In this document: positions 10,014 to 64,000 of the stretch, piece after piece | Layout of the letters: every line of letters begins with the position of its first letter | How positions within the stretch are numbered: the first letter of the stretch is position 1 | Origin: Pseudomonadota bacterium | GTDB lineage: Bacteria > Desulfobacterota > Desulfobulbia > Desulfobulbales > SURF-16 | Assembly (NCBI GenBank): GCA_018897105.1 | Contig: JAHILF010000092.1 | Span: 19,559-83,558, forward strand | Direction: 5' to 3' | DNA length: 64,000 nt | Program-made: the position numbers and the translations under genes | Notes under the pieces: generated by a model | Seen by the model: only the letters and a program-made list of their open reading frames with translations | The model's database searches: none | What the model was told of the DNA's origin: nothing

Positions 10014-10049
10014 TTATTCAAGAATAGTTTGACCATAAAGAGAAATAAA

Positions 10050-47526: not shown

Positions 47527-47551
47527 ATTCTTTTGTCTGTCAAGGAGAGTG

Positions 47552-49168
47552 ATGATGCAGAGTGCGCCCGTGTTAATGCTGATTGTTGCAACCTCTTTCG
47601 GGGAGGTTGACTGGATCCTTCCGGTGCTCGCTGCATATAAGAAGAAAAACCCGCAATGGCAGATAATGACCCTGTTCGGCCATGAGGAGATTTTTGAGAG
47701 CTTGGTTCACAATAGGGCAATATATGAAGAGTTTGCCGCAATTTCTTCCCTGAACATTGTTCCCCGGGAAATCGATCTCTTTCTCTCCAGGAATATTTCA
47801 CCGGATCAGGTGAAAATCATTTTAAAGGATTTTAATGAGGACGAGTATGCCCCATATAAAATATATCTGGAGTCACGCTGCCCTGATGCCCTGGTGGTGA
47901 GTTATCCGCACTCCAATTATATTTATTCAAACCGGACTACGGAAGCCCTGCAAATCGCCGCATCCCCGGATGCTTATAGCAGGCATGATATTTTTCTGCT
48001 TGGCTCCGAGCATGATATCCCATATTGGTCCAGCTACGTGGATGTCTCCAAAATTCGCACATTCGGTTATCCTGTTTTCGATGAGGGGTGGATGGGAAAA
48101 ATGCTTCACGCCCCAAGCTTTGTTGAGTCCCCGGAAATGAAGATGGCAGTTAATGCGGGCAAGGTTTTTTTTCATATTTCCCGGCATCCACATCGTACCT
48201 ATCTTGACGAGGAGGATTATTTTTACCTGATGCAGTCCCTGGTGGAAGAGGTGTTTTCCTATGACGATGCTGTGCTTCTCATAAAACCGCATCCCAGGCA
48301 GAATATTGACAGTTTTGCTGAAGTTCTGGCATCGTATGATCCTTCAAGATGGATGTTTACCGGTCTCCAGCTTACCCAGCTCTGTTCTCTGGCTGATGTC
48401 GTGGTGTCGTTTTTTTCTTCCGGCATCATAAATGCTTTGGCGGCAGGAAAGCCAGTTATTGAGTTCTATCGTTTCAATGACAAGAATCCGGACTGGCGCA
48501 GGCTGCCAAACGGCGCGACAACGTCCATCTACCGGGAACTCGGCCTTGCCGTGCCCGCAGATAGCAGACAGGAATTAGCTCTGCAGATAAAATCGGCCTT
48601 GGCGGGTACGGATTCTGTTTGGGCGTTTCAACAAAAAGCCTACACTCTCCACTGCCAAGAAAGGGAGAATGTTGCAGAAGCAATAAGTGATTGTCTCCTT
48701 AAAGAATGGGCAGCCAAAAAAGAGAGAGTTGCCAAAGGTGAAGTGAGCGATGAGGATAAACCGGCCCGGCAGCTCGGGTATATGCGGAACTTTGTGGAAA
48801 AGGGAGACTATCAAGCCGCGGAAGAACTGGTGGAATCACTCGTTGGTCGCTATCCCAACGTTGCCCTGTTCTACAATGAACTCGCTGTTTACCTCTATCA
48901 GCGGGGGGAAGTTGAACGGGCAATACGTAATTTCGCCAATTGCCTGGGTCTTGACCCTCATTTTGGGGTTGCAGCAGTGAATCTCTGTCATGCCCTTATG
49001 GAAAAAGAGAGAGATGGTGAAGCGCTGGAAGTGATTCTTTCCTTTCAGCGGACGGTTGTCGAAAAACAGGATGTTTTGGTTGAGTTGCAGAATGCACTCA
49101 AAGGGCAGCTGCCGGCGGAGATGTTTGACCGATTGCAGAAAATGCTAAACGATAACCATGCGTCATGA
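47552..49168 (+). CDS. GT-B-like putative glycosyltransferase (KPHP motif) fused to C-terminal TPR repeats
   Basis: LLIKPHPRQ..ADVVVSFFSSGIINALAAGKPVIEF resembles capsule-synthesis or sialyltransferase-type GT-B C-lobes. The C-terminus has TPR-like repeats (GDYQAAEELVE..YNELAVYLYQRGEVERAIRNFANCLGLDP). The function is tentative. Confidence 0.45.
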   Translation: MMQSAPVLMLIVATSFGEVDWILPVLAAYKKKNPQWQIMTLFGHEEIFESLVHNRAIYEEFAAISSLNIVPREIDLFLSRNISPDQVKIILKDFNEDEYAPYKIYLESRCPDALVVSYPHSNYIYSNRTTEALQIAASPDAYSRHDIFLLGSEHDIPYWSSYVDVSKIRTFGYPVFDEGWMGKMLHAPSFVESPEMKMAVNAGKVFFHISRHPHRTYLDEEDYFYLMQSLVEEVFSYDDAVLLIKPHPRQNIDSFAEVLASYDPSRWMFTGLQLTQLCSLADVVVSFFSSGIINALAAGKPVIEFYRFNDKNPDWRRLPNGATTSIYRELGLAVPADSRQELALQIKSALAGTDSVWAFQQKAYTLHCQERENVAEAISDCLLKEWAAKKERVAKGEVSDEDKPARQLGYMRNFVEKGDYQAAEELVESLVGRYPNVALFYNELAVYLYQRGEVERAIRNFANCLGLDPHFGVAAVNLCHALMEKERDGEALEVILSFQRTVVEKQDVLVELQNALKGQLPAEMFDRLQKMLNDNHAS

Positions 49169-50403: not shown

Positions 50404-51600
50404 TCACCCTTCTTCGATGAGACGCGGACCGATGGAAAACTGATAGATGCCCCAGATCCCCGTGGGAGCGGCTTGCGGGGCCATTGTCAGGAAGCCGAAA
50501 TAGTCATAGCCATAGTCTCCCGATGTTCCCGCCAGAACCGATTCCAGGGGGGCTGTGCCGGATAATCTATACCAGTATTGCTCTTCCGGCCGCAAAATCA
50601 TATTGATGGTACCGCTTTCCCGGATGTTTTCCACTCGAAAAACCCATCTGGTGCCGCTTTGGGCGTGTTCGACAAAAAAATGGATGGTTCCGTTTTGAAG
50701 ATCCAGGTTTTTGACATATTGTCGGACATAAAGGAAGCTGTTGCGAAGATCCTCGCCCAGTGTCGATTGCGAGGCGTGGACAAAACCAAGATAGGCAAAG
50801 GAGGGAGCGGAGTCTGTTATGGGTAGGAAATCATCAGTGTTGTAGGCAAGATGAATTGTTTGATTTTCGATCATTTCAACCCGGTCCTGAATTGTTTCAC
50901 TGTGCATGGGTATTTGACGACCCTGCCGACGGCTGACAGTCAGCCATCTGTTGGCGGACTTGCTGAAGTCGGCATTGTAAGGCCAGTTTGTTTTGATGTC
51001 GGCCTCTATGGTAAATTCGCTTAAGGATAATCTCCCGGTCACTTTTTCGGAAAATCCGAGAAAAGAAAAACCAAAACTTGAACAGGCTTTCAGGGTCATG
51101 GGCAGACTCCTGGCATGCAAGGGGTCGGAGATGAAGCTGCAGTGCCATGACGCCGGGTTCATATCCATGCAAAGACGAAGGGGTTTATCCCAGGTTCCAT
51201 CGCTTATAGCCAGGGGATACCGATTATAATGCCAGCGGGTTGAGCCAAGGGTCGAGGTGTGGACCCAGAAAAAACATTTTCCCCCCTTCAGGTCAAGCCC
51301 GTCTCCGCGCAGGTGGAATTCCACCATGGCGTTTCTGAGATCATACGGAGGTTCCAATACCCAGAAGGGGTAGTAAATCAAGGCTAAAATGGAGTGGGGG
51401 GATTCCGGGGTGTCAATGCTCCACATGGTGTCATCCGCCCAGATATAGGGTTTCCCGTCAGCCCCCCCCTGTTCATCAAAATGGACTTGATGGAATTTAT
51501 CATCCGGGCCGATGTATTCATAACTGCCCCAGGATAAGAGGTTTGTCGTTATTTTCATGTCGGAGGGATTTCCTTGTTGATGGGGGAGGCCCTCTCCCAC
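50404..51600 (-). CDS. hypothetical protein with an internally duplicated domain; no family recognised
   Basis: An uninterrupted 398-codon ORF lying 8 nt downstream of the HisF-like gene. The two halves share patterns (FHLRGDGLDLKGGKCFFWVHTS..TRW vs YVKNLDLQNGTIHFFVEHAQSGTRW). The start is either GTG 51600 or ATG 51558. It contains a G8 tract (51462-51469). Confidence 0.55.
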   Translation of the reverse strand: MGEGLPHQQGNPSDMKITTNLLSWGSYEYIGPDDKFHQVHFDEQGGADGKPYIWADDTMWSIDTPESPHSILALIYYPFWVLEPPYDLRNAMVEFHLRGDGLDLKGGKCFFWVHTSTLGSTRWHYNRYPLAISDGTWDKPLRLCMDMNPASWHCSFISDPLHARSLPMTLKACSSFGFSFLGFSEKVTGRLSLSEFTIEADIKTNWPYNADFSKSANRWLTVSRRQGRQIPMHSETIQDRVEMIENQTIHLAYNTDDFLPITDSAPSFAYLGFVHASQSTLGEDLRNSFLYVRQYVKNLDLQNGTIHFFVEHAQSGTRWVFRVENIRESGTINMILRPEEQYWYRLSGTAPLESVLAGTSGDYGYDYFGFLTMAPQAAPTGIWGIYQFSIGPRLIEEG

Positions 51601-52366: not shown

Positions 52367-52980
52367 AGCGAGATAAAATTGGTCAGAATTCTGGCGCCGG
52401 ACTTGAGGCTTTTTTCCGGATGGAATTGCACCCCGAAGCAGACGTCTTTGCCGACAACAGAGATGAATCCCCCGCAGTATGGGGTCTGAGCAAGGACATA
52501 CTGTGGATCGCACTGGAAATGATAGCTGTGGACAAAGTAGAAATCCAGGCGGTCTTCCACTTCGTGAAAAAGCGGAGAAGTCGAAACCCGGTTGACCTCG
52601 TTCCAGCCCACATGGGGAATCCGTTCCTCTGCAATAACAGGTTCAAGGTGTCTGATCGTCCCCGGGATCAGATCGAGACCACTGGTTTTTCCGCCTTCAT
52701 AGCCGATTGTGGCCATGAGTTGCATACCTAAACAGATGCCCAGAAAAGGAGTGCCGTGTGTTTGTATCCTGTATTTGATGGTCTGTATCAGGTCGTCACG
52801 GGAGGTCAACTCCTTCATGGCGTCGGCAAATGATCCTACGCCGGGTAAAATGATACCATCCGCTTGGGCCACCTCGTGGGCGATATCCGTGATAAGCGGC
52901 GCGGCCCCTAATTTTTCAACGGCCCGGGCAACGGAGTCAATGTTGCACATCCCATAATCAATGATTGCTATTTTTTTCAT
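52360..52980 (-). CDS. HisH-like glutamine amidotransferase subunit (WbuY-type)
   Basis: KIAIIDYGMCNIDSVARA..ILPGVGSF..GICLGMQLM (catalytic Cys)..VQFHPEKS. Confidence 0.85.
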   Translation of the reverse strand: MKKIAIIDYGMCNIDSVARAVEKLGAAPLITDIAHEVAQADGIILPGVGSFADAMKELTSRDDLIQTIKYRIQTHGTPFLGICLGMQLMATIGYEGGKTSGLDLIPGTIRHLEPVIAEERIPHVGWNEVNRVSTSPLFHEVEDRLDFYFVHSYHFQCDPQYVLAQTPYCGGFISVVGKDVCFGVQFHPEKSLKSGARILTNFISLC

Positions 52981-54128
52981 GGGTTGTCGTAATTGATTTT
53001 TGTCAGATTGCCATGCCTGTCTTTTACCAGACGTCCCTTGGCGTCGCGGACAAACAGTTTTTTATTGGTAAATCGATCGCAGATTGTCACGAATTCATCT
53101 ACCGTCATATCAATCTCTTCAAGAATATCTTCCAGCGGCCGGCCAAGATAGGTCCAGGGGAATTTCCCGTCGTGGCGCCTGACCAGTTCCAGGGCGTCAG
53201 CCCGCTGCATGCGGCCTCGCCGGATATGCAGACAGGCGATGTCTGTTGCCCGGCCAAAACCATATTTAAGAAATTTGAAGTAATCGTGGATCCCGGTGTG
53301 ATAATTGTCAAGATTCTCGTAGTTTGCCAGGGAGCCTTCCACAAAACTCGGAAAGGTCTCAAACCCGTATCCCTGGGAGATGACCGAATTATGGTAGCCA
53401 TCCCAGGGCAGGTAGTATCCGAGAAATAGACCGGTCACCCCGACTCTCTGCAGCTCTGCGTCGCTGGGATAGGTAAACTGGACCAGATGCCGTTTTTCAA
53501 TGCCCTCCTGACCCACCAGATCGGATACCCGCAATCCGAGCAGGCCTCCGAACTCTTCAAGCCAGCGGCGGGACAGGGTGTTGTTGTCCGCGTCGGCAGC
53601 AGGCCCGCCGTATTCGTTTTGTGAATTTTCTCCCCAGATGAGAAGGGGGATATTGAGCTGAACGGCGATGCGGACTGGAATAGTGAAAATCGTCACGTGT
53701 TCCGGCCAGGAGATATCGCCCAGGGTAGTGAGGCATAACCGGTTGATTTTATGGCGGACGACCCTGTTGGTTGTCACTTCGAGATAATCAACCCCCAGTT
53801 TTTTTATGTTGTCGATATTACGCCGGCCGATATCGGACAGGGAACAGGTGGTGCTGGTGACACAGAGTGGATTCATGCCTAATTTCAGCATCCGCACGGT
53901 CTGATAGGTGCTGTCCTTGCCGCCGCTGACCGGAATGACACAGTCATAGTTGCTGCCCGCTGTATTGCGGTATTTTGCCAGTATGTCATCAAGCTCTTTT
54001 TTGCGGACGGCCCAATCGATTTTCTTTCGGCGTTGGAAATAATTACAGGCGCTGCAAACGCCCTGTTCGTCAATTTCCAGATCCGGTTTGGTTTCCGGCA
54101 TGAGGCATTTGTTGCAGTAGGTAATCAT
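52977..54128 (-). CDS. N-acetyl sugar amidotransferase (PP-loop ATPase; WbuX/WbpG/LfnA/PseA family)
   Basis: N-terminal zinc-ribbon CNKC..CSAC and the PP-loop VIPVSGGKDSTYQ. 383 aa. Confidence 0.85.
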   Translation of the reverse strand: MITYCNKCLMPETKPDLEIDEQGVCSACNYFQRRKKIDWAVRKKELDDILAKYRNTAGSNYDCVIPVSGGKDSTYQTVRMLKLGMNPLCVTSTTCSLSDIGRRNIDNIKKLGVDYLEVTTNRVVRHKINRLCLTTLGDISWPEHVTIFTIPVRIAVQLNIPLLIWGENSQNEYGGPAADADNNTLSRRWLEEFGGLLGLRVSDLVGQEGIEKRHLVQFTYPSDAELQRVGVTGLFLGYYLPWDGYHNSVISQGYGFETFPSFVEGSLANYENLDNYHTGIHDYFKFLKYGFGRATDIACLHIRRGRMQRADALELVRRHDGKFPWTYLGRPLEDILEEIDMTVDEFVTICDRFTNKKLFVRDAKGRLVKDRHGNLTKINYDNP

Positions 54129-54208: not shown

Positions 54209-56698
54209 TTATCTGTCGTTTCGGTTTGTTGCCGCTAAACTCAAATCATTTCTGAATTGCTTGAGAGAATTGCTGATTTCGGCAAACACAGCGGCCCAGT
54301 CCCCTGGTCTTGATTGGCGGAATATGGTCATTGAGGGATACCAGGGGCTCTCGCGTCCATCAAGCAGCCACCTCCAGTCCGGGATATAGGGTAATAAAAG
54401 CCAGACAGGTTTATTCATTGCCCCGGCAAGATGTGCAACGGATGTGTCCACTGTTATGATGAGATCCAGGTGGTGCATCAGGGCCGCGGTATCTGAAAAA
54501 GATGAAAGATGTTCTTTCAGGTCATTGATTTCCGGAAATGAGGTAAGCTCGGGCGCATCTTTCTGCAGGCTGAAAAGCTGCACATCGGGTACACGAATCA
54601 GCGATTCGAAGTGCTCCAGACGACATGACCGGTTATGGTCATTCTTGTGCTTTGGATTGCCGCGCCAGACAATGCCGATTTTTATTTTCCCGACTGAAGC
54701 GGCAAACTCATTGAGATACTGGTGCGCCAGCTTGCTGTCGGCGGCAATATAGGGGACTTTATCGGGAATGCTGTCGCGGGTTGTCCGGAATATTGTCGGC
54801 AGATCAAGCAGGGGAATATGGTAATCGACCTCTGCCATCATCGCGGCCGGCAGGTCCTTGCCGATGACGGCATCTATTTCCGGAAGCGTCCTGAAGAGAT
54901 CCAGGAGTGCTCTTTCACAGCAAACAAAAATTCTGTTGACTCGTTCTTTGAGTAGAGGGATGTATCTGATAAATTGAATCGAATCGCCATAGCCCTGCTC
55001 CGTGTGGACTAATACTGTTTTGTCCGGACAGAAATCTCCCTGCCATCGGGGCTTGTTGATAGGCAGAATAATGACTTTTTTTCTTTTCCATCGCCAGAGA
55101 TAGAGGTCAAAACCTTCCGGGTAGTCACCTGTCAGCAGCAGTTGATGGCTGAGGTTCCAGTTGGCCTCGACGTGATCGGGATTTATGGCAATGGCATGGC
55201 GAAGATGTTCAATGGCTTTGCCGGTGTCTTTCAGTTTGGAATAACAGGTGCCGAGATTGTACCAGGCATCGGCAAAGTCCGGATCATGGGAAGTGGCCAG
55301 TTCATAGGCAGCGATTGCCTCATTGAAGGATTCCTGCTTCAGATAAATATTGCCCAGATTGCAATACGCCTTGCTGAAAGCCGGTTGCAGAGTGAGTATC
55401 TGTTGAAAGGTGGCAATGGCTGCGTCAATGTCATCATTTTCTTCCAGGCTGAGTCCGAGGTTGTTAAGCGTATCCACATTGTCAGGGGAGAGAGTCAGTG
55501 ATTGGTGGAAGGCCTCTATCGCTTTGGGGTAATTTTTCACCTTATGATAGGCGATTCCCAGATTGTAATAGGTTTGCGCTGAGCCTGGCTTTAAGGTGAG
55601 CACCTGCTCGTAGGCCTGTATGCTTTCGGCAAAGCGGTCTTGAAACTGGATAGTCAAAGCCAGATTCTCCAGGACACTGCTGTCTTCGGGGTGCAACTGC
55701 AAAGCTTGCCTGAAAATTATTTCCGCCTCGGCATAACGCTGCAATGTTTTATAGGTGACCCCCAGGTTGTTCAGGGCCTCCGGATAGTCTGGTTTCAGGA
55801 CGAGAGCGGTTTCAAATTCCCCGACGGCGGACTCAAGTTGTCCCAAGCTGTGCAGGGCATTGCCAAGATTGTACCTGGCCTCCGGGAGATTGGGGGCTCT
55901 TTCCAAGGCCTTTCTGAAATAAGAAATGGCTTCATTTTTCCGGTCATCTTCCGATAATAATAAACCAAGGTTGTTGAGAGCGCAGACGTTATCGGGCTGC
56001 AGGGTAAGTGCCGTCTGAAAGCAGGTTTCCGCGTGAGCTGAGTTGCCGCCTGCCTGGAGCAGCAGACCTGCCTTGACGATAGGGATCACCGCCAGCGGGT
56101 CTGCTGTATTGGCTTTGAGGAAAATATCCAATGCTTCTTGGGACCTGCCTTGGGATTGAAGGATTGTCCCAAGCTGATCCAGCACATAGGAATCTTCAGG
56201 CTGCAGCGAGAGGGCTTTCCGGTACATTTCTTCCGCTTCGCCAAGCATGTTGCGTGACACATAAATCCGTCCCAGGTTGCGAAGGGCTTCCTGGTAATCG
56301 GGGCGCAATGCGATCGTCTTGAGGAAATATTCCAGGCCCTCCTCCACTCGTCCTTGCAATACCTCAATATTGCCGAGGTTGAAATAGGTTTCCGCCGAAT
56401 CCGGAGAGAGTTGCATGGCAGAGAGGAAAGTTGCCGCTGCTTCATCGAGCCTCTTGAGTTGCAGGAGAATAAAACCCAGATTGTGCAGGGCCTTGAAATT
56501 GTCAGGCTGCAGCGAGGCGGCTTTTTTGAAAAAGGGGTATGCTTCGCTGTTTCTTCCCTGATGGTGCAGGGTCAGACCGAGAATCCCAAGGATCTCCGGG
56601 GCTTCAGGGTTCTGTTCCAGAATCCGGCGGCAGGTTTGTTCCGCTTCCTGCAGTTTACCCTGGTGGAGGAGATCAATGGCTGTCTGAGTATGCGGCAT
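54209..56698 (-). CDS. TPR-repeat (about 15 repeats by eye) protein with a C-terminal GT9-like glycosyltransferase domain; the architecture resembles the flagellin glycosyltransferase FlmG
   Basis: Repeated A..NLG..Y...G....A...Y..AL.L.P units span about 520 aa. They are followed by HTEQGYGDSIQFIRYIPLL and ITVDTSVAHLAGAMNKPVWLLLP (GT9-type). Confidence 0.7.
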   Translation of the reverse strand: MPHTQTAIDLLHQGKLQEAEQTCRRILEQNPEAPEILGILGLTLHHQGRNSEAYPFFKKAASLQPDNFKALHNLGFILLQLKRLDEAAATFLSAMQLSPDSAETYFNLGNIEVLQGRVEEGLEYFLKTIALRPDYQEALRNLGRIYVSRNMLGEAEEMYRKALSLQPEDSYVLDQLGTILQSQGRSQEALDIFLKANTADPLAVIPIVKAGLLLQAGGNSAHAETCFQTALTLQPDNVCALNNLGLLLSEDDRKNEAISYFRKALERAPNLPEARYNLGNALHSLGQLESAVGEFETALVLKPDYPEALNNLGVTYKTLQRYAEAEIIFRQALQLHPEDSSVLENLALTIQFQDRFAESIQAYEQVLTLKPGSAQTYYNLGIAYHKVKNYPKAIEAFHQSLTLSPDNVDTLNNLGLSLEENDDIDAAIATFQQILTLQPAFSKAYCNLGNIYLKQESFNEAIAAYELATSHDPDFADAWYNLGTCYSKLKDTGKAIEHLRHAIAINPDHVEANWNLSHQLLLTGDYPEGFDLYLWRWKRKKVIILPINKPRWQGDFCPDKTVLVHTEQGYGDSIQFIRYIPLLKERVNRIFVCCERALLDLFRTLPEIDAVIGKDLPAAMMAEVDYHIPLLDLPTIFRTTRDSIPDKVPYIAADSKLAHQYLNEFAASVGKIKIGIVWRGNPKHKNDHNRSCRLEHFESLIRVPDVQLFSLQKDAPELTSFPEINDLKEHLSSFSDTAALMHHLDLIITVDTSVAHLAGAMNKPVWLLLPYIPDWRWLLDGRESPWYPSMTIFRQSRPGDWAAVFAEISNSLKQFRNDLSLAATNRNDR

Positions 56699-56832: not shown

Positions 56833-59712
56833 ATGAAAAACTACTGGCAGGCAAATATGGATTTGCTCAAACAATATGAACCGGAACTCCATGAGCGGTT
56901 AACAGATATCCACTTTGAATCTGTCGGCGACTTTTTTCAGACACCGACCGGCGACGTCTCTCTTCGCTATCACGGAGCCAATAACCAGCTTTTCGCCTAT
57001 GGCAATGATCCTTGGCAGGATTGTGCCTGCCATCTGCAAACAGTGGAGAAGGGCGCCACCGGACTGGTTGTCTTTGTGGGCATGGGGTTGGGGTATGGGC
57101 CTTTAACTCTGCTCCGGGAACGTCAGGAAGTAGGGCGGATCATCATTCTTGAACCGTCCACGGACCTGTTTTTTGCTGCCATGTCCGTCCTTGATTTGAG
57201 GCCGCTCATCATTTCAAAACAGGTTTTGTTTCAGGTGGGCGCTGTTGACTTTGAGAAATTTGAACTGGATGCATATCGTCTGGCGTCCATTGACGATTCC
57301 CATGTTCTGCGTCATGCCCCATCTTTTCAATGGCGGCCTGATCTGTATGCAACATTAAATGAGCAGGCATATATGATTTTGAACAAGATCAATGCCAGCG
57401 GCGGGACCACGAGGCGGTGGGGGCCGACTTTCTTTAAGAATCGCCTGACATATCTGAAACGCCTGCGTTTTCTCAATGAAATCGACTTGCTGCACGGGGC
57501 ATTCAAGGGGATGCCGGCCATGCTGGTCGCCGCAGGTCCATCCTTGACCCAGAGTCTGGAGGAATTGAAGAAAGTTAAGAATCATTGTGTTATCATTGCT
57601 GCTGATTCCGCCTTGGCCCCCCTTCTGGAGGCAGGAGTCATTCCTGATTTTGTCACCTCCATTGATTTTCTGGATTTGAATATCGAGAAACTGGCACCCT
57701 ATCTCTCCGGGGAATGGGATTTTTCCTTGGTGTCCATGGTGAAAATGGCGCCGATCGTCAATCAGACGTTTCCCGCCCGCCATATTTTTGCCGCCTTTCC
57801 CGAGGATCGTTCCCATGATTGGGTCATCCAGGCTCTTGGCGTGAAAAGATATGTGGCCACGGCATCATCGGTTGCTCACCTTTCTCTTGGGCTTGCTCTT
57901 ATTCTTGAGGCGGAACCTGTCTTTTTGGTCGGCCAGGATTTAAGTTTTACCTCGGAAGTGGAGGACCATGCCAAGGGTACCATCATTATGAAGACGGGGA
58001 CCGAGCCGGAGCATGAGATTTTTTATGTGAAAAGCATCAATGGCGGCAAGGTAAAAACCGACCGTCAGTTGATGTCTCTTCAGAGTATTTTTGAGGATAT
58101 TTTTGCGAAAGCTCCCGGGCAATTTATTAACGTTTCTGCTGCCGGTGCGCATATCCAGGGAACCAGAGTAATGCCGCTTGCAGCGGCACGGCAGGAGTTT
58201 ATGGGGGATGAACTGCCGGTTGCCGTTTCGGATGTTGTTGACCGCTGTGTCGCTAAGAGTATTCCCTTCCCGGTTGAAAATTTCTGCCGCACCTGTGAAA
58301 AGAATATAACGCTTGCCAAGAAGTTGACCGGTAAGCTGAACTCTTCTCTGACCATGTCTCAGGAACTTGTAGCACGCTTGAAGGTTATCGGTAAAGAAGG
58401 CCATGCCATCAATGCAATGGGCGATTTGCCTGATTCATTGGTGAGAAAGCTGCATAAGATCGATACCGTCAATTGTGAAGTTGACAAAGAACAGGAGTTC
58501 TGGCAGCAGGTGCTGGAGTTGACCTATAACTCCTTGAGTGAAAATGACGTGAGGAACGCTCGGAATACAAAATTAAAGGAACAAGGCCCTTATTTGCGCT
58601 GGTTGTCGGCGGAGCTGGACCGTATTGATCTGGTAAACCGTGAGCGGCTGCAGGCGCTGATGACGTATCAGGCAGAGGTGGGAGCTCTGGTCGGTTTTTT
58701 GAAACAGGAGAAAGTTTTGCTTGCCCGGTATGAAAAGAAGAAATCGTTGCAGGCTACTCTGGATTTGGCACGATTCTATACGGATAATCATGCCTATCAG
58801 CAGGCAAAGGCAATTGTTCGCTCCAGTCCAGCTGAATTTCATGGGCAAAGTGCCGAGCTCAATGTGCTGACTGGTAACACCTGGGCGGCATTACTGGATT
58901 ATGAACAGGCGGGACAGTTCTGGCAACAGGCTGTCACCATTGCCGAAGCAAGTCAACAGGCAATTTCTCAATTCTGCCGTGAGCAGATTACTCTCTGGCT
59001 CGGGTTTGTAGAGAGATATGGAAATGCCGGAGAGAAAGGGGACAATTTCCCTCATCTGTTACCGGTCTGGCTCGGAAGAATTTTTCAACTGGTTGAGCAG
59101 GATGGAAATCTTCCTGCTGAGGTCAGGGTAATGTGGGAAAACCATTTTGGCCGTATTCGCACATGGCTTGATGAAGGAGATGTGGACGCGGCCAGGATTA
59201 CCTTTACCGGCTGGCGGCTATTTCGGAACTGGATTGCTGAAATAGACTTCTGCCGGGCATTATTGCTGTCAGGGGAAGGAGAAAGTGAAGCGGCACGGCA
59301 ATGCATGGAAGAACTGAATGCCCGCAAGCCGGGAAATGGTGAGTGGCTTGCCTTTCAGGCCCGTTTAACATTGGAGCAGGGAAACTTTGATCAGGGGATC
59401 AGTCTCCTGCAAAAGGCTGTTGCTCTCGACCCCCTGCAGGCGAAGCTGTGGGGGGAATTAGGTGATGTCCTGGTCGCGGACGGCGATCTGGAGAGCGCGG
59501 TATTGGCCTATGAACGATGCTTTCTTGCCTTGCCGCATTATCTGGTCGCTTTGAATAAAATAGGCGATTGTTACCTGCTGGCAAAGCAACCTCAGCCGGC
59601 CATGGCCGCCTATGATGCGGTATTAGAGAAAGATCCGGCTGATACCTGGGCAAGAGATGGGAAACGCAAGGCTGACAAGATGGGGCAAAAAAATTCCGGC
59701 AGAAAAGATTAA
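56833..59712 (+). CDS. maf: motility accessory factor (Maf; DUF115/MptE-like domain) with a long C-terminal helical/TPR region
   Basis: MPAMLVAAGPSLTQSLEELKKVKNHCVIIAADSALAPLLEAGVIPDFVTSID is the Maf/DUF115 core. C-terminal TPR-like repeats (KLWGELGDVLVADGDLESAVLAYERCFLALP..). It lies directly upstream of the flagellin gene. Confidence 0.8.
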   Translation: MKNYWQANMDLLKQYEPELHERLTDIHFESVGDFFQTPTGDVSLRYHGANNQLFAYGNDPWQDCACHLQTVEKGATGLVVFVGMGLGYGPLTLLRERQEVGRIIILEPSTDLFFAAMSVLDLRPLIISKQVLFQVGAVDFEKFELDAYRLASIDDSHVLRHAPSFQWRPDLYATLNEQAYMILNKINASGGTTRRWGPTFFKNRLTYLKRLRFLNEIDLLHGAFKGMPAMLVAAGPSLTQSLEELKKVKNHCVIIAADSALAPLLEAGVIPDFVTSIDFLDLNIEKLAPYLSGEWDFSLVSMVKMAPIVNQTFPARHIFAAFPEDRSHDWVIQALGVKRYVATASSVAHLSLGLALILEAEPVFLVGQDLSFTSEVEDHAKGTIIMKTGTEPEHEIFYVKSINGGKVKTDRQLMSLQSIFEDIFAKAPGQFINVSAAGAHIQGTRVMPLAAARQEFMGDELPVAVSDVVDRCVAKSIPFPVENFCRTCEKNITLAKKLTGKLNSSLTMSQELVARLKVIGKEGHAINAMGDLPDSLVRKLHKIDTVNCEVDKEQEFWQQVLELTYNSLSENDVRNARNTKLKEQGPYLRWLSAELDRIDLVNRERLQALMTYQAEVGALVGFLKQEKVLLARYEKKKSLQATLDLARFYTDNHAYQQAKAIVRSSPAEFHGQSAELNVLTGNTWAALLDYEQAGQFWQQAVTIAEASQQAISQFCREQITLWLGFVERYGNAGEKGDNFPHLLPVWLGRIFQLVEQDGNLPAEVRVMWENHFGRIRTWLDEGDVDAARITFTGWRLFRNWIAEIDFCRALLLSGEGESEAARQCMEELNARKPGNGEWLAFQARLTLEQGNFDQGISLLQKAVALDPLQAKLWGELGDVLVADGDLESAVLAYERCFLALPHYLVALNKIGDCYLLAKQPQPAMAAYDAVLEKDPADTWARDGKRKADKMGQKNSGRKD

Positions 59713-59736
59713 AGTTGCCGGCAGCATTATCCGATA
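59709..59736 (+). promoter_or_regulatory. candidate sigma28 (FliA) promoter of the flagellin gene
   Basis: TAAAGTTG-N12-TCCGATAC versus the consensus TAAAGTTT-N11-GCCGATAA. The spacer is one nt longer than consensus. The motif overlaps the maf stop codon. Confidence 0.45.
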
Positions 59737-59849
59737 CTTGACAATAGAACCGTTACGAAGTGTTGTCCCGTGTGAAAAAACAAGTAAAGGAGGTGTCTCG
59801 CACAGGAAAGAAACGATGGAAAACTCGGAGTTTCTAGTTTGCAGTTTGT

Positions 59850-59894: not shown

Positions 59895-62309
59895 ATGGCA
59901 TTACGAATTAATACAAATGTGGCTGCTCTGTCAGCTCACAAAAACATGATCAAGAACGATAATTCTCTCTCGGCCTCATTGGAGAAATTATCCTCCGGTC
60001 TGCGGATCAACAAGGCGGCTGACGATGCCTCCGGTATGGCAATTGCCGACTCGTTGAGGTCCCAGGGCCTTGGTCTCGGTCAGGCTGTCAGGAATGCCAA
60101 TGATGGTATTTCCATGGTACAGACAGCTGACGGTGCTTTGGAAGAGTCCATCAATATCGTTAATACTATTAAGACCAAATCCATCCAGGCAGCCCAGGAT
60201 GGGCAAACCATCGATTCCCGTAAGGCGATTCAGGCTGACATCAATAAACTGATGCAGGAGCTCGATGTCATTGCCAAAACGACTTCGTTTAATGGGCAAA
60301 AGCTGCTTTCCGGGGCTTTTACCGATAAGAAGTTCCAGGTTGGCGCCTACTCCGGTGAGACGGTCGGTGTTTCGATCGGTTCTTCAGAGTCAACCAAAAC
60401 CGGCCATCTGAGCACTGCAATACTGAAATCTGATGCGGTAAATGGCGGTGAAGTCCGCATGACCATTCAGAGCAGCCTGCAGGCGACCTCGGTTGCACTG
60501 CAATCCGTAACTCTGGCATATGATAATGAGGCCCAGCATGGTATAGGGGCTCTGGCTGATGCTATTAACAAGGTTGCCGCTGTTACCGGTGTAACCGCGC
60601 AGCTGGATGTTTCCGTGTCCAGCACCGGAGCTGTTGGGGCCGGCACCACCGGTTCTGACTTTGCTGTTAATGGAATAGCCATCGGTGCGGTGGAAATTTT
60701 TGCCAATGATTCCAATGGCGCTTTGGTGAATTCTATTAATCAGAAGTCGGATCAGCATGGTGTGACCGCCAGCGTTGATGCGGGCGGTGTGTTAACCCTG
60801 ACCGCAACTGACGGCCGGGCTATCCAGGTTACCGGTAGCACGAGTACGGTTCTTGCCGGCAGTAACTTAAGCACCTTTGGCCAGATCAAACTCTTCCAGA
60901 TCGGCGCCAATGAGATTAAGATAAATGATGAAGCCCAGGTAATGTCTCTGAATGTCACTGCCAATGTGACAGCGTCGGATAAAGTTACCACCAGTGTTGA
61001 TTCTGTTTTGAGCAAAGATTCAGTTATTGCATCGCTTTCGGTTCTGAAAGCCGGTACCACCCTCGGTTTTGACGCCGGGGCTGCTCAGATGATAGATGCA
61101 GATATTTCAACGACCCAGGATACCATCTTGACTGCCGGCTCGGTACTGGGATCCGGGACGACGATTGAATCAGGCTCGATTCTTGGCGGTTCAGTCTCGA
61201 ATCAGTCCGCAGTAACCACCACGGATGAGTCTGTGTTGAAAACCGGCTCCATTCTTGGCTCTACTTCAGTGCTCGCCGCTGGAACCGTTGTCACCACCCA
61301 GTTTATCGACAGTGCTGCTAATACCTACACGGCCGGCACCACGCTGTCCAGCGATGTCACGATTAGTGACGCGGTGACCTTGACAGCCGATATGAATATT
61401 GCCGCCGGTTCAGTGTTTAACGATGACGAAAACGTCTTTACTGCTGGTTCTTATATCGGTGCTGATGTTGTCGTTTCAGGTAATGCAACCATGACCCTTG
61501 GCATGACCTTGAAGGCCAACTCCATTATTGGGGGTTCTGCATCGACTATCAAGGCCGGTTCAACTCTTGGCGGCGATCTCACCACAAGCGGTGCGGATAT
61601 AACCGTTCTGGCTGATACGCAACTTAAAGCCGGTTCTGTTATAGGCAGTAACAGTGCCTTTGCCAAAGGCTCCACCATTGGCGGCAATGTCACTACCAGC
61701 GCCAATGTCACCACCTCCGGTGAGATGACCCTGGCTGCCGGTTCTCAGCTGCAAGCGGCAAGTACCATCAAGGCCGGTACCGTGCTTACCAATGATGTCT
61801 GGGTAGCTGGCGGCGATCTTCTCAAAGCCGGCACAGTCCTGCAGGGTGATGCCATTACCTCGGGTACGAATTATCTCAACAACTCCATGACCCTGAAGTC
61901 TGGATCTGTGATGGCGAGTGGCTCCGTTTTTGCGGCGGCTCAGACCGCAGCAACCGGAGCGTCTGCTACAACCAGTCTGTCTGACATTGAGAAATTCACC
62001 CTCGCTGATGTTGACGTGACCTCTCAGGAAGGCGCCCAGGTGGCAATCAGTATCGCTGACTCTGCCTTGAAGAATCTTGATAAGATCAGGTCCGATCTCG
62101 GTTCCGTACAGAATCAGCTGACCTCTACCATTGCCAATATCTCGGTAACCCGCGTTAATATCTTTGCCGCGGAATCTTCAATCCGGGATGTTGACTTTGC
62201 CGAAGAGTCTGCAAACTTCTCAAGGATGCAGATTCTGAGTCAGGCCAGCACCTTTGCCATGGCCCAGGCCAATGCAAGCTCCCAGAACGTTCTGAGCCTG
62301 CTGCAGTAA
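59895..62309 (+). CDS. fliC: flagellin (804 aa, enlarged variable region)
   Basis: N-terminus MALRINTNVAALSAHKNM..LSSGLRINKAADDASGMAIA. C-terminus LGSVQNQL..RIRDVDFAEESANFSRMQILSQA..NVLSLLQ. Flagellin_IN-like motifs (ALVNSINQKSDQHGVTASVDAGGVLTLTATDGRAIQV). A central region of about 520 aa is rich in Ser, Thr, Gly and Ala. Confidence 0.95.
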   Translation: MALRINTNVAALSAHKNMIKNDNSLSASLEKLSSGLRINKAADDASGMAIADSLRSQGLGLGQAVRNANDGISMVQTADGALEESINIVNTIKTKSIQAAQDGQTIDSRKAIQADINKLMQELDVIAKTTSFNGQKLLSGAFTDKKFQVGAYSGETVGVSIGSSESTKTGHLSTAILKSDAVNGGEVRMTIQSSLQATSVALQSVTLAYDNEAQHGIGALADAINKVAAVTGVTAQLDVSVSSTGAVGAGTTGSDFAVNGIAIGAVEIFANDSNGALVNSINQKSDQHGVTASVDAGGVLTLTATDGRAIQVTGSTSTVLAGSNLSTFGQIKLFQIGANEIKINDEAQVMSLNVTANVTASDKVTTSVDSVLSKDSVIASLSVLKAGTTLGFDAGAAQMIDADISTTQDTILTAGSVLGSGTTIESGSILGGSVSNQSAVTTTDESVLKTGSILGSTSVLAAGTVVTTQFIDSAANTYTAGTTLSSDVTISDAVTLTADMNIAAGSVFNDDENVFTAGSYIGADVVVSGNATMTLGMTLKANSIIGGSASTIKAGSTLGGDLTTSGADITVLADTQLKAGSVIGSNSAFAKGSTIGGNVTTSANVTTSGEMTLAAGSQLQAASTIKAGTVLTNDVWVAGGDLLKAGTVLQGDAITSGTNYLNNSMTLKSGSVMASGSVFAAAQTAATGASATTSLSDIEKFTLADVDVTSQEGAQVAISIADSALKNLDKIRSDLGSVQNQLTSTIANISVTRVNIFAAESSIRDVDFAEESANFSRMQILSQASTFAMAQANASSQNVLSLLQ

Positions 62310-62638: not shown

Positions 62639-64000
62639 ATGGCCGGGACTATCAGTACATTGGGCATCGGGTCGGGCATCGATTTGCAGGGTATGCTCGA
62701 ACAGCTGCGGGAGATTGACCAGCAAGTCGTTGATGCGAAAAGCGACAAGATCAAGGGGTACCAGGACCAGCTGGCGGAATTCACCACTGTCAACAACAAG
62801 CTGTTGACCTTGAAAAGTTCGGCCCTGAATCTGTCCCTGTCCAGTAACTTTCTGGGACGGACTGTGACCAGTTCTGACGAAACCGTGGCAACGGCCACGG
62901 TTGTTGACGGCGCTGTGGAGCAGAGTGACCAGCTGGAGGTGACCCGTCTTGCCGCTAAAAATTCATGGCTGTCGGCTTCCGGTGCGGCCTCCGCCGACAG
63001 CAGCGTTTATGTGCCGGTGAGCACTGAATCGACAACGGGCGTTGCTGACAGCGCCGCAACGGTGGTTGCCCATGCCGGGGAATCCATGCTCATCACCTTT
63101 GGCGAGGCGGATCAGATTATTCTGAATGTGGCCGGTGATATGACCATGGATGATCTGGTGACGGCGATCAATACCCATGTGGATAATGTCGGCGCCGGTG
63201 ATAATGGACGGCTGGTAACCGCGGAAACCTATGATGTGGAAGGCGAGACATTCCTGCGCATCAGAAGCGATCTGGCCGCTGGCACGGGTGAGAGCAACCG
63301 GGTGGCGGTTAACGAGGATTTTGCTGATATCGATTTTGCCGCTCCTGACACCACTTTTTCCTTCCAGGTCGGCGAGGGTGATCCTGTTTCCATAACCGTT
63401 GCGGCCGATACCACCCTGACCGAGCTTACCGCGCTTATTAATGATGCAGAGGATAATCCCGGCGTCACAGCGGCAGTGATCAATGACGGAGATGCCTCCA
63501 CTCCCTACCGCCTGACCCTGCAGTCGAACACCATCGGCGAGGATGGCCGCATCACTTTTCTGACCCAGCTTGCCGATATGACCCTGGATGAACAGCAGGG
63601 GGCCGGAGGAGAATCGCTCAACGCCCAGTTTTCCCTGGACGGCATTTCTTATCAGCGCCAGTCCAACTCTTTTTTCGATGTGATTTCCGGCGTGACCATC
63701 ACTCTGGAGAGTGAGGGCACCACCACCATCACCGTCGGTAATAACAATGCAAACATCAAAGATATGATCAACGGGCTGGTTACCGCCTATAATGACGCGG
63801 TCCAGGAAGTACGGACAAATTCCTCCTATGACGCCGAGACAGGCACATTCGGCAGTCTATTCGGCACAACGCTGCGCGATCTTCCCAACACGTTGAGAAA
63901 CCTTATGACTTCAACGGTCAGGGCAGACGAAACCGGCAAGGTCACTACTCTTTTTGATTTAGGCCTGGAATTTAACAGAGATGGAACCATATCACTGGAT
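62639..64000 (+). CDS. fliD: flagellar filament cap protein FliD (partial; runs off the window end; absent from the supplied ORF track)
   Basis: The ATG at 62639 opens 454 codons with no stop. The product reads MAGTISTLGIGSGIDLQGMLEQLREIDQQ..FSLDGISYQRQSNSFFDVISGVTITLE..LGLEFNRDGTISLD, which are classic FliD N-terminal and central motifs. Confidence 0.9.
   Translation, partial: MAGTISTLGIGSGIDLQGMLEQLREIDQQVVDAKSDKIKGYQDQLAEFTTVNNKLLTLKSSALNLSLSSNFLGRTVTSSDETVATATVVDGAVEQSDQLEVTRLAAKNSWLSASGAASADSSVYVPVSTESTTGVADSAATVVAHAGESMLITFGEADQIILNVAGDMTMDDLVTAINTHVDNVGAGDNGRLVTAETYDVEGETFLRIRSDLAAGTGESNRVAVNEDFADIDFAAPDTTFSFQVGEGDPVSITVAADTTLTELTALINDAEDNPGVTAAVINDGDASTPYRLTLQSNTIGEDGRITFLTQLADMTLDEQQGAGGESLNAQFSLDGISYQRQSNSFFDVISGVTITLESEGTTTITVGNNNANIKDMINGLVTAYNDAVQEVRTNSSYDAETGTFGSLFGTTLRDLPNTLRNLMTSTVRADETGKVTTLFDLGLEFNRDGTISLD

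What the first reader, a model, noticed from the sequence alone, without database searches (positions are those of the whole stretch)
61128..61946. The flagellin variable region is a ~45-unit hexapeptide / 18-residue solenoid repeat (left-handed beta-helix-like)
From residue 412 (LTAGSV) to residue 684 the sequence can be written in register as hexads. There are 21 uninterrupted hexads (LTAGSV LGSGTT IESGSI LGGSVS .. TMTLGM), then +1 residue, 6 hexads (LKANSI IGGSAS TIKAGS ..), then +2 residues, then 18 hexads.

The last 108 residues stack as six 18-residue coils:
- LKAGSVIGSNSAFAKGST
- IGGNVTTSANVTTSGEMT
- LAAGSQLQAASTIKAGTV
- LTNDVWVAGGDLLKAGTV
- LQGDAITSGTNYLNNSMT
- LKSGSVMASGSVFAAAQT

Position 1 is mostly aliphatic or aromatic, for example in 17 of the first 21 hexads. 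At least 16 copies of phi-x-[AST]-G-[ST]-x-phi occur. This is the [LIV]-[GAED]-x2-[STAV]-x logic of LbetaH hexapeptide proteins.

I do not know this fold from any flagellin D2/D3 domain. It would project ordered ladders of Ser and Thr on the filament surface, which would be a regular scaffold for O-glycosylation by the adjacent transferases. The DNA-level repeats are degenerate, so this is not a recent expansion.
Basis: seen in the sequence. Interest (0 to 1): 0.82.

Follow-up and report, generated by a model that had tools for sequence, protein, structure and literature searches.

The report
Flagellin with a hexapeptide beta-helix rod
The surface-exposed middle of this 804-residue flagellin is about 18 turns of the hexapeptide beta-helix otherwise known from sugar acyltransferases, here without catalytic residues, probably serving as a rigid and probably sugar-coated outer layer of the flagellar filament; I found no solved or published flagellin with this outer domain.

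Summary
ORF 59895-62309 (+) is an 804-aa flagellin. Self-similarity peaks at lags 6, 12, 18, 24 and 30 (z 5-7); the neighbouring outer region is flat. A three-hexad (18-residue) period is also significant (p = 0.0014).

The left-handed beta-helix (LbH) reading is well supported:
- Pfam Hexapep scores above its cut-off.
- All 34 PDB sequence hits of a family profile are LbH proteins.
- AlphaFold2 with 32 homologues gives pLDDT ~93 and 2-3-residue strands every six residues.

The domain has no His, Cys, Pro or Arg and no invariant polar residue, so it is not an acyltransferase. It is a rare family: 61 clusters among 1.84 billion proteins, mostly flagellins of Desulfobacterota and Campylobacterota, with roughly 6 to 48 coils.

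The Ser/Thr-ladder idea is only partly right. The best-conserved Ser/Thr (hexad position 5) behaves as buried. Exposed Thr sits at position 6, mainly in alternate coils.

I found no solved or published flagellin with this domain. I rate it a new variant of a known kind, of moderate interest.

The parts
59710..59737 (+). Sigma-28 (FliA)-like promoter motif TAAAGTTG-N12-TCCGATAC. A Shine-Dalgarno AAGGAGG lies just before the ATG.
   Evidence: Read directly from the sequence. Compared from memory with the consensus TAAAGTTT-N11-GCCGATAA. The strict consensus pattern gave no exact match in the window. Inference only.
59895..62309 (+). Flagellin gene, 804 aa. Identical to NCBI MBU4263859.1, 'MAG: flagellar protein FlaB [Proteobacteria bacterium]'.
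   Evidence: ORF; Pfam Flagellin_N, Flagellin_IN and Flagellin_C; PDB flagellins at E down to 3.6e-112; exact look-up.
59907..60323 (+). N-terminal D0/D1 helices (aa 5-143).
   Evidence: Pfam Flagellin_N, E 1.8e-46; AF2 helices 9-33, 45-100 and 106-129.
60327..60920 (+). Conventional outer region (aa 145-342), mixed beta/alpha with the Flagellin_IN motif. It resembles the outer domains of H. pylori and C. jejuni flagellins.
   Evidence: Pfam Flagellin_IN at 257-306. phmmer stretches 3-329 to 9yh1 and 1-427 to 6x80. Foldseek top hits 9ygu, 9yh1 and 6x80. No hexad periodicity in 170-411.
60921..61946 (+). Hexapeptide (LbH-type) solenoid, aa 343-684: 54-56 hexads, about 18 coils of 18 residues. 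The estimated rod length of ~9 nm assumes ~4.8 A per coil (from my own knowledge of LbH structures).
   Evidence: Autocorrelation; AF2 DSSP with 56 short strands spaced 5-7 residues apart and pLDDT ~93; register and composition; Pfam Hexapep at 575-607 and LbH_EIF2B at 402-502; PDB profile hits are all LbH proteins.
61128..61397 (+). Five-coil block (aa 412-501), the first copy of an internal duplication.
   Evidence: Ungapped 90-residue alignment to aa 577-666, score 142: z = 15 against residue shuffles, and z = 4.7 (0/500) against shuffles of hexad order.
61623..61892 (+). Five-coil block (aa 577-666), the second copy of the internal duplication.
61947..62024 (+). Return linker (aa 685-710): a low-confidence segment at 683-689, then a beta-strand at 693-701 leading into C-terminal D1.
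   Evidence: AF2 pLDDT of 50 for residues 681-690; strand E693-701.
62049..62303 (+). C-terminal D1/D0 helices (aa 719-803).
   Evidence: Pfam Flagellin_C, E 1.8e-27. 100% identical in the closest relative L001, whereas the solenoid is 87.7% identical.
56833..59712 (+). Maf-type motility accessory factor (putative flagellin glycosyltransferase) with C-terminal TPRs, immediately upstream.
   Evidence: Pfam MptE-like 6.8e-32, Maf_flag10_N 3.4e-11, and TPR families.
62639..64000 (+). fliD (filament cap), runs off the end of the window.
   Evidence: Translation; Pfam FliD_N, FliD_C and Flagellin_IN.

Best explanation
Residues ~343-684 of this flagellin fold into one long, non-catalytic beta-helix of the hexapeptide (LpxA-like, left-handed) type. 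It has about 18 coils of three hexads each. An aliphatic residue at hexad position 1 and a small residue at position 5 fill the core. Gly, Asp or Asn at position 4 makes the turn. Positions 2, 3 and 6 face the solvent.

The rod is inserted on the return path of the flagellin 'out-and-back' chain, after a conventional Helicobacter/Campylobacter-like outer region and before C-terminal D1. It therefore lies on the outside of the filament.

Inferred: it acts as a rigid structural outer domain that thickens or coats the filament. It presents bands of exposed Thr/Ser (position 6 of every second coil, plus positions 2 and 3). These are probably O-glycosylated by the adjacent Maf enzyme with a heavily modified sugar made by the ~57-kb island upstream. 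A nonulosonic (sialic-acid-like) sugar is my reading of the CMP-sugar synthetase genes there, but no NeuB-type synthase was identified in the window.

The rod grew by duplicating multi-coil blocks. Two coil types alternate, and a five-coil block occurs twice. Its length is evolutionarily adjustable in relatives, from about 6 to 48 coils.

Shown: the periodicity, LbH-class sequence membership, a confident predicted solenoid, the absence of catalytic residues, the family distribution and the gene neighbourhood.

Inferred: handedness, the orientation of the rod on the filament, glycosylation and mechanical role.
For: Periodicity at 6 and 18 residues.

Pfam Hexapep is above its gathering score in the window protein and matches 44 of 70 family members. 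Only LbH-type families were hit among beta-helix folds: LbH_EIF2B, GMPPB_C, Hexapep_2, Hexapep_GlmU, DCTN5 and LbH_GLGC.

A profile of 10 collinear domains against PDB sequences gave 34 hits at E <= 0.01, all LbH proteins: LpxD at 3.9e-6, plus LpxA, GlmU, DapH, gamma-carbonic anhydrases and eIF2B-epsilon. The alignment to LpxA is in hexad register.

AF2 with a 32-sequence alignment gave mean pLDDT 86, about 93 over 351-680, with 2-3-residue strands every six residues. The single-sequence run was not confident (pLDDT 40), so the confidence comes from the alignment rather than from repeat hallucination.

The family conservation pattern fits in/out geometry. Entropy is 1.6-1.7 bits at positions 1, 4 and 5, against 2.3-2.4 at positions 2, 3 and 6. 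Charged or amide residues make up 0-5% at position 1 and 1-12% at position 5, against 13-45% elsewhere.

Non-catalytic: the domain has no His, Cys, Pro or Arg, and the invariant columns are only G, S, T and L.

Outside location and faster evolution: the C-terminal core is 100% identical in the closest relative, the solenoid 87.7%.

Glycosylation context: Maf, CMP-sugar synthetases and many modification enzymes lie next door. The Desulfospira joergensenii LbH flagellin is followed by PseB-like, NeuB and CMP-synthetase genes.

Duplication history and coil types. Length classes.
Against: No coordinates were available, and the only structure library that worked returned 50 flagellin hits aligned on the core. 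The solenoid was therefore never superposed on a solved LbH, and handedness is unmeasured.

AF2 is known to produce confident but unrealistic beta-solenoids for repeat sequences (PMC11795689).

The classical pattern [LIV]-[GAED]-x2-[STAV]-x is not enriched over shuffles: 14 hits against 12.8 expected. Gly sits mostly at position 4 rather than position 2.

PDB E-values are modest (1e-6 to 1e-2) and could partly reflect convergent repeat composition.

A straight ~9-nm rod is awkward for the out-and-back topology. The linkers at 337-352 and 681-692 are short. In relatives without the Ig-like region (P0001, P0002) both rod ends must reach D1 through about 20 residues each.

One homologous locus (P0002) has no glycosylation genes within 10 kb.

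No experimental data exist on glycosylation or filament morphology.
Confidence: 0.72

Rival explanations
1. The region is a beta-solenoid of another architecture, and the LbH sequence hits reflect convergence of short Gly/Ser/Val repeats. Candidates are a right-handed bactofilin-like or pectate-lyase-like helix, or a helix with 36-37 residues per turn.
For: Handedness was not measured. There is a strong 36-37-residue super-period: lag 37 gives z = 6.5, and DNA repeats lie 111 and 222 nt apart. One weak PDB hit was formylmethanofuran dehydrogenase subunit C, which is not an LbH protein. Pectate-lyase-like outer domains do exist in flagellins (cluster #35, PMC11532411).
Against: No Pfam hit to any right-handed beta-helix or bactofilin family in 70 members. 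All 34 profile hits in the PDB are LbH proteins. The three-hexad periodicity is significant (p = 0.0014), and the two-hexad grouping is not. The 36-residue period is explained by two alternating coil types.
Confidence: 0.08
2. The confident solenoid is an AlphaFold2 artefact, and the region is really a flexible, low-complexity, Ser/Thr/Gly/Ala-rich glycosylated linker.
For: AF2 is reported to over-predict beta-solenoids for repeats (PMC11795689). Ser and Thr make up 28% of the region, and Ala and Gly are abundant. The single-sequence prediction was poor.
Against: The repeats are degenerate, not perfect. Confidence appears only with a real alignment. Position-specific conservation shows a strict hydrophobic position 1 (83% in the family), which is unlike a disordered linker. 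Independent HMM hits go to solved LbH proteins. Collinear conservation holds across distant lineages. There is no Pro.
Confidence: 0.05
3. The LbH domain is an enzyme displayed on the filament, in the way that flagellinolysins display a protease. It would be an acyl- or acetyltransferase acting on glycans or host substrates.
For: Almost all characterised Hexapep proteins are acyltransferases or carbonic anhydrases (the hit list). Enzymatic flagellin outer domains are known (PMC7643111, PMC11532411).
Against: The domain has no His, Cys or Arg, and no invariant polar residue in 10 collinear homologues. It has no flanking substrate-binding domain. Similarity is confined to the repeat scaffold.
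Confidence: 0.03
4. The rod is primarily a binding surface rather than a passive, glycosylated structural layer. It could be an adhesin, or an ice-, mineral- or polysaccharide-binding array of Thr like the TxT faces of beta-helical antifreeze proteins.
For: Thr is frequent at outward position 6 (33% in the family), and T-x-T/S triplets occur across strand junctions. The relatives come from sediment and sulfidic-environment lineages.
Against: Thr at position 6 alternates with Val/Ile and is spread over all three faces. No face carries a regular, uninterrupted TxT ladder. The adjacent Maf and sugar island favour glycan coverage.
Confidence: 0.1

Closest known systems
Helicobacter pylori FlaA/FlaB and Campylobacter jejuni FlaA flagellins (PDB 9ygu, 9yh1, 6x80)
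   Same: The D0/D1 core and first outer region are homologous: phmmer E 3.6e-112 to 1.8e-108, covering query residues 1-330 or 1-427 plus the C-terminus. They are also the Foldseek top hits. The locus is Maf-associated, as in these organisms (Maf biology is from my own knowledge).
   Different: Those flagellins are 508-576 aa and have no hexapeptide solenoid. The solenoid alone, or its family profile, finds no flagellin in the PDB. Here about 340 extra residues of LbH sit between the outer region and C-terminal D1.
Left-handed parallel beta-helix (hexapeptide-repeat) domains of LpxA, LpxD, GlmU, DapH and gamma-carbonic anhydrases (Pfam PF00132)
   Same: Hexad register, with an aliphatic position 1 and a small position 5. 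Three hexads per coil. HMM similarity.
   Different: No catalytic His and no conserved polar residues. About 18 coils, and up to ~48 in relatives, against roughly 5-10 in the enzymes (the enzyme figure is from my own knowledge). Gly is preferred at position 4. Two coil types alternate. The domain is embedded in a secreted filament subunit. Trimerisation is unknown.
Beta-helical flagellin outer domains already noted from AlphaFold clustering (cluster #35, pectate-lyase-like; PMC11532411)
   Same: A beta-solenoid used as a flagellin outer domain, known only from prediction.
   Different: That cluster is described as pectate-trisaccharide-lyase-like, a right-handed fold with long irregular coils. 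The paper's main text does not mention hexapeptide, LbH or solenoid. Its supplementary tables could not be read.
Giant flagellins of Oceanospirillales (Bermanella, Oleibacter; PMC6248924)
   Same: An enlarged outer region built by internal duplication, raising the same out-and-back folding question. Thick filaments are expected.
   Different: Their duplicated 'DE' region is a globular domain unrelated to hexapeptide repeats. Here enlargement proceeds by adding solenoid coils.

Membership tests
Bacterial flagellin (FliC/FlaA/FlaB) | N-terminal and C-terminal helical D0/D1 regions | tested here: met
   Pfam Flagellin_N 158 bits and Flagellin_C 95.9 bits; AF2 long helices with pLDDT 85-94 in D1.
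Bacterial flagellin (FliC/FlaA/FlaB) | Homology to subunits of solved flagellar filaments | tested here: met
   80 PDB flagellin sequences at E <= 0.01, best 3.6e-112; Foldseek E 9e-35.
Bacterial flagellin (FliC/FlaA/FlaB) | Flagellar gene neighbourhood | tested here: met
   fliD immediately downstream; Maf upstream; sigma-28-like motif.
Bacterial flagellin (FliC/FlaA/FlaB) | Polymerises into the filament | not testable with these tools
   Requires filament purification and mass spectrometry, or cryo-EM.
Left-handed beta-helix / hexapeptide-repeat fold (PF00132, LpxA-like) | Tandem imperfect hexapeptides with an aliphatic residue at i and a small residue at i+4 | tested here: met
   Position 1 hydrophobic in 43/54 hexads (83% in the family). 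Position 5 is S/T/V/A/M with almost no charged residues. Lag-6 z = 7.1.
Left-handed beta-helix / hexapeptide-repeat fold (PF00132, LpxA-like) | Profile match at the curated threshold | tested here: met
   Hexapep 33.4 bits against a cut-off of 27. 44/70 family members match. The PDB profile search returned only LbH proteins.
Left-handed beta-helix / hexapeptide-repeat fold (PF00132, LpxA-like) | Three hexads (18 residues) per coil | tested here: met
   Leu at position 1 in 13/18, 3/18 and 5/18 hexads by hexad class, p = 0.0014; other moduli are not significant. AF2 strand spacing agrees.
Left-handed beta-helix / hexapeptide-repeat fold (PF00132, LpxA-like) | Left-handed chirality and triangular prism in 3D | not testable with these tools
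Hexapeptide acyltransferases / gamma-carbonic anhydrases (the enzyme families using this fold) | Conserved catalytic or metal-binding His and a trimer-interface active site | tested here: not met
   Zero His, Cys or Arg in residues 343-684. The invariant columns among 10 homologues are only G, S, T and L.
Right-handed beta-helix (pectate-lyase-like, bactofilin) | Profile or sequence similarity to those families | tested here: not met
   No such Pfam family at E <= 1 for the window protein, nor at E <= 0.01 / 0.001 for 70 relatives. None among the PDB hits.
Beta-helical antifreeze-type Thr-ladder proteins | An uninterrupted TxT array on one flat face | tested here: not met
   Thr at position 6 is 4-8 of 18 per face, alternates with Val/Ile, and is spread over all three faces.

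The most novel reading that the evidence does not exclude
The LbH rods are tethered at both ends. They would pack side by side with the rods of neighbouring subunits, much as LbH domains pack in trimers, to form a continuous, glycan-covered beta-helical coat around the filament. This would be a protein 'sheath' built from the flagellin itself. Its thickness or pitch would be set genetically by coil number (about 6, 14, 18, 26, 36 or 43-48 coils in different lineages). The same module would be reused in FlgL junction proteins.
Probability: 0.2. Interest if true: 0.7.

Novelty: new variant of a known kind. Interest (0 to 1): 0.5.

Why it matters
Flagellin outer domains determine filament thickness, stiffness, surface chemistry, antigenicity and phage or host recognition. 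They are also used as display scaffolds.

A long, regular, non-catalytic LbH rod would be a new structural class of outer domain. Its length changes in whole coils across relatives, which gives a natural experiment on how outer-domain size affects filament mechanics.

It also poses a clean topological puzzle. A linear solenoid must be fitted into a chain that goes out from the filament core and comes back.

If the exposed Thr bands are the Maf glycosylation sites, the protein would give a periodic, structurally defined substrate for studying how Maf enzymes choose sites, for which no sequon is known.

Desulfospira joergensenii, a cultured species, carries a 1339-aa member. The question is therefore experimentally accessible.

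Tried and rejected
- **Hydrophobicity Fourier spectrum over 412-684.** No period-6 peak (z = -0.3), only period 3 (z = 3.7). The cause is register slips and hydrophobic residues at both positions 6 and 1. I replaced it with BLOSUM autocorrelation.
- **Single-sequence AF2.** pLDDT 40, unusable.
- **Foldseek against the PDB with the good model.** All 50 listed hits were flagellins aligned on the core, so the solenoid was never compared.
- **BFVD.** Gave only uncharacterised phage and giant-virus proteins with poor TM-scores.
- **The search for related loci with the domain alignment.** With the single domain it found one locus, an 88% identical MAG relative.
- **Classical hexapeptide regular expression.** Not enriched over shuffles, so I did not use it as evidence.
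- **Strict sigma-28 consensus search.** No exact match. The motif reported here was read by eye.
- **Supplementary tables of the outer-domain clustering paper.** Not held, so I could not check whether an LbH cluster is listed there.
- **A single Thr-ladder face.** Rejected after the per-face counts.
- **A catalytic reading.** Rejected on composition.
Full report
**1. What is at the coordinates**

The finding lies inside ORF 59895-62309 (+), 804 aa. Pfam places the following:
- Flagellin_N at residues 5-143
- Flagellin_IN at 257-306
- Flagellin_C at 719-803
- Hexapep (PF00132) at 575-607, 33.4 bits against a curated cut-off of 27
- a weak LbH_EIF2B match at 402-502

The protein is identical to NCBI MBU4263859.1, 'MAG: flagellar protein FlaB [Proteobacteria bacterium]'.

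Its closest solved relatives are H. pylori FlaB/FlaA and C. jejuni FlaA (E 3.6e-112 to 4.9e-100). These align only over the core and the first outer region, up to about residue 330-427, plus the C-terminus.

The gene has a strong Shine-Dalgarno sequence and a sigma-28-like motif upstream (read by eye). fliD follows it at 62639. A Maf-type putative flagellin glycosyltransferase precedes it at 56833-59712.

**2.

The motif is expected 0.33 times by chance.

BLOSUM62 autocorrelation of residues 412-684 peaks at every multiple of six (z 5.1-7.1). It is strongly negative half a period away. The preceding outer region, 170-411, is flat.

A period of 18 is not visible as an extra-high autocorrelation peak. 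It does appear when hexads are sorted by index modulo 3. One class has Leu at position 1 in 13 of 18 coils, against 3 and 5 in the other two (p = 0.0014). Sorting modulo 2, 4 or 5 shows nothing.

The DNA repeats are short and degenerate.

**3. Extent and register**

AlphaFold2 on the single sequence failed (pLDDT 40). With a 32-sequence alignment of collinear homologues it gave mean pLDDT 86. Over 351-680 the value is about 93, apart from a loop at 391-400.

DSSP on that model shows 56 strands of 1-3 residues spaced 5-7 residues apart, from 343 to 679.

The model's register puts the three extra residues at 509-514, 546-551 and 565-570, with a 4-residue loop at 396-405. This raises hydrophobic occupancy of position 1 to 43/54.

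**4. Which fold**

All sequence-profile evidence points to the left-handed hexapeptide helix.
- The solenoid alone finds LpxA at E 3e-4, and otherwise almost only LbH proteins.
- A profile of ten collinear domains finds 34 PDB sequences at E <= 0.01. Every one is an LbH protein: LpxD, LpxA, GlmU, DapH, PglB-like, gamma-carbonic anhydrases, eIF2B-epsilon, QdtC and VioB.
- The LpxA alignment is in hexad register with my position 1.
- Across 70 relatives, 44 match Hexapep. Several match other LbH families. None matches a right-handed beta-helix or bactofilin family.

Family conservation follows the expected in/out pattern. Positions 1, 4 and 5 are conserved and nearly free of charged residues. 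Positions 2, 3 and 6 are variable and polar.

AF2's known tendency to invent confident solenoids for repeats (PMC11795689) is a caveat. It is weakened here because the repeats are degenerate and the single-sequence run was not confident.

**5. Internal anatomy**

Two coil types alternate.
- Type A has three 'phi-x-A-G-S/T-x' hexads, for example LKAGSV IGSNSA FAKGST.
- Type B is Thr-rich, for example IGGNVT TSANVT TSGEMT.
- A third type, C, is inserted twice.

The order along the rod is B A B A B A C B A B A B A B A C B A. Coils of one type score 19-48 against each other, and -10 to +13 across types. This explains the 36-37-residue super-period, seen as lag 37 z = 6.5 and as DNA repeats 111 and 222 nt apart.

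A five-coil block, 412-501, recurs ungapped at 577-666. It is significant even against shuffles that preserve the hexads (z = 4.7, 0/500). The rod therefore grew by block duplication. This happened long ago, because homologues at 35-60% identity are collinear, with indels only at a few loop positions.

**6. Not an enzyme**

The solenoid contains no His, Cys, Pro or Arg. Ser and Thr together make up 28%. The invariant columns among ten homologues are only Gly, Ser, Thr and Leu. The catalytic His of hexapeptide acyltransferases, and the metal-binding His residues of gamma-carbonic anhydrases, cannot be present.

**7. Distribution**

A full HMMER scan of 1.84 billion cluster representatives found only 61 at E <= 1e-3. 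Most are flagellins. Named sources include:
- Geobacteraceae, Dissulfurimicrobium, Campylobacterales and Sulfurimonas MAGs
- the cultured Desulfospira joergensenii, WP_022664654.1, 1339 aa

Two hits look like FlgL, and several are very large non-flagellar proteins.

Solenoid length in complete flagellins ranges from about 100 to about 860 residues, with classes near 330 and 650. Some members lack the Ig-like region, so the rod is their only outer domain (P0001, P0002, P0004, P0009).

In the closest relative, an 88% identical MAG, the C-terminal core is 100% identical and the solenoid 87.7%. That is the usual behaviour of an exposed flagellin region.

**8. How it probably works**

Shown: the rod sits between the conventional outer region and a short low-confidence linker (683-689), followed by strand 693-701 leading into C-terminal D1.

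Inferred from chain connectivity:
- Its C-terminal end must lie near the filament core.
- Its N-terminal end, about 9 nm away, is joined to the distal end of the Ig-like region.
- The rod therefore either runs antiparallel to that region as a two-part arm, or lies on the filament surface tethered at both ends.

I favour a structural role: a rigid outer layer that sets filament thickness and surface.

Glycosylation is plausible. Maf is adjacent. The ~57 kb upstream encode two or three CMP-sugar synthetase domains, aminotransferase, epimerase, carbamoyltransferase, acyltransferases, at least seven methyltransferases and 14 radical-SAM enzymes. No NeuB-type sugar synthase was identified among the ORFs I scanned in the window, so the sugar type is not established. 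The Desulfospira gene is followed by PseB-like, NeuB and CMP-synthetase genes.

The conserved Ser/Thr of the AGS/AGT motif is position 5, which behaves as a buried residue. The exposed hydroxyls are Thr at position 6, mostly in type-B coils and so roughly every 9.6 A, plus positions 2 and 3. No face carries an uninterrupted TxT ladder, so an antifreeze-like reading is weak.

**9. Comparison with what is known**

Flagellin outer domains are known to be extremely diverse. One study reports 682 structural clusters, including a pectate-lyase-like helix, peptidase and WD40 domains (PMC11532411). Giant flagellins built by domain duplication are also known (PMC6248924).

I found no solved flagellin with an LbH domain. 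I found no paper in the searchable library that connects flagellin with hexapeptide, LbH, LpxA-like or solenoid. Public precomputed Pfam annotations already flag Hexapep on some of these proteins.

My verdict is a new variant of a known kind: a flagellin with a known fold in a new, non-catalytic, unusually long form. It is not a new category.

**10. Verdict**

| Item | Verdict |
|---|---|
| Observation | Confirmed |
| Fold interpretation | Well supported by sequence profiles and prediction; handedness untested |
| Surface-ladder and glycosylation interpretation | Partly supported and uncorrected in detail until tested |
| Interest | 0.5 |

Noticed in passing
window 1-56,700 (e.g. 5915-7843, 10029-11975, 12822-14246, 14312-15664, 16829-18247, 22509-23957, 29254-30696, 30734-32200, 45169-46656): The whole window upstream of the flagellin is a single-strand-dominated sugar-modification island. 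It holds nine B12-binding radical-SAM genes, three SPASM radical-SAM genes, two further radical-SAM genes, at least seven SAM methyltransferases, two Acyl_transf_3 genes, a carbamoyltransferase, a DegT aminotransferase, CMP-sugar synthetases and GT2s. This is an unusually large toolkit for a flagellin glycan.
   Followed up: partly
window 59710-59737: Sigma-28-like motif TAAAGTTG-N12-TCCGATAC, overlapping the 3' end of the Maf ORF, 158 nt upstream of the flagellin ATG. The strict consensus search found no exact copy anywhere in the window.
   Followed up: partly
window 62639-64000: fliD (filament cap) starts at 62639 and runs off the window. It carries a Flagellin_IN motif like the flagellin.
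   Followed up: partly
window 54209-56698 (-) and 47549-49168 (+): Large TPR proteins sit inside the glycosylation/flagellin locus: one of 829 aa with many TPRs, and one of 539 aa. Maf itself also ends in TPRs. They may be substrate-recognition or chaperone partners. Not examined.
   Followed up: no
window 52977-54128 (-), 50404-51600 (-), 3554-5209 (+): Three sizeable ORFs (383, 398 and 551 aa) in the island have no Pfam family at the thresholds used.
   Followed up: no
P0035, P0057 (FlgL-like); P0045, P0048, P0053, P0062 (2300-2660 aa): The same repeat domain also occurs in proteins with FlgL-like N-termini (hook-filament junction) and in very large non-flagellar proteins.
   Followed up: partly
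P0009, P0004, window, P0041/P0065/P0020, P0024/P0027/P0029/P0034/P0042, P0019/P0021: Solenoid length among flagellins falls into classes of about 100, 260, 330, 460-500, 650 and 770-860 residues. That corresponds to about 6 to 48 coils, with near-doubling from 330 to 650.
   Followed up: partly
L004 10001-22421 (Desulfospira joergensenii ATUG01000001.1): A cultured species has a 1339-aa LbH flagellin. Downstream, after two unannotated proteins of 390 and 695 aa, lie PseB-like, NeuB, CMP-synthetase and PseG-like genes.
   Followed up: partly
L002 / L003 (P0002 locus): A 631-aa LbH flagellin without the Ig-like region sits next to a complete chemotaxis operon (CheA, CheW, CheR, CheD, CheB, MCP). 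It has no glycosylation genes within 10 kb.
   Followed up: no
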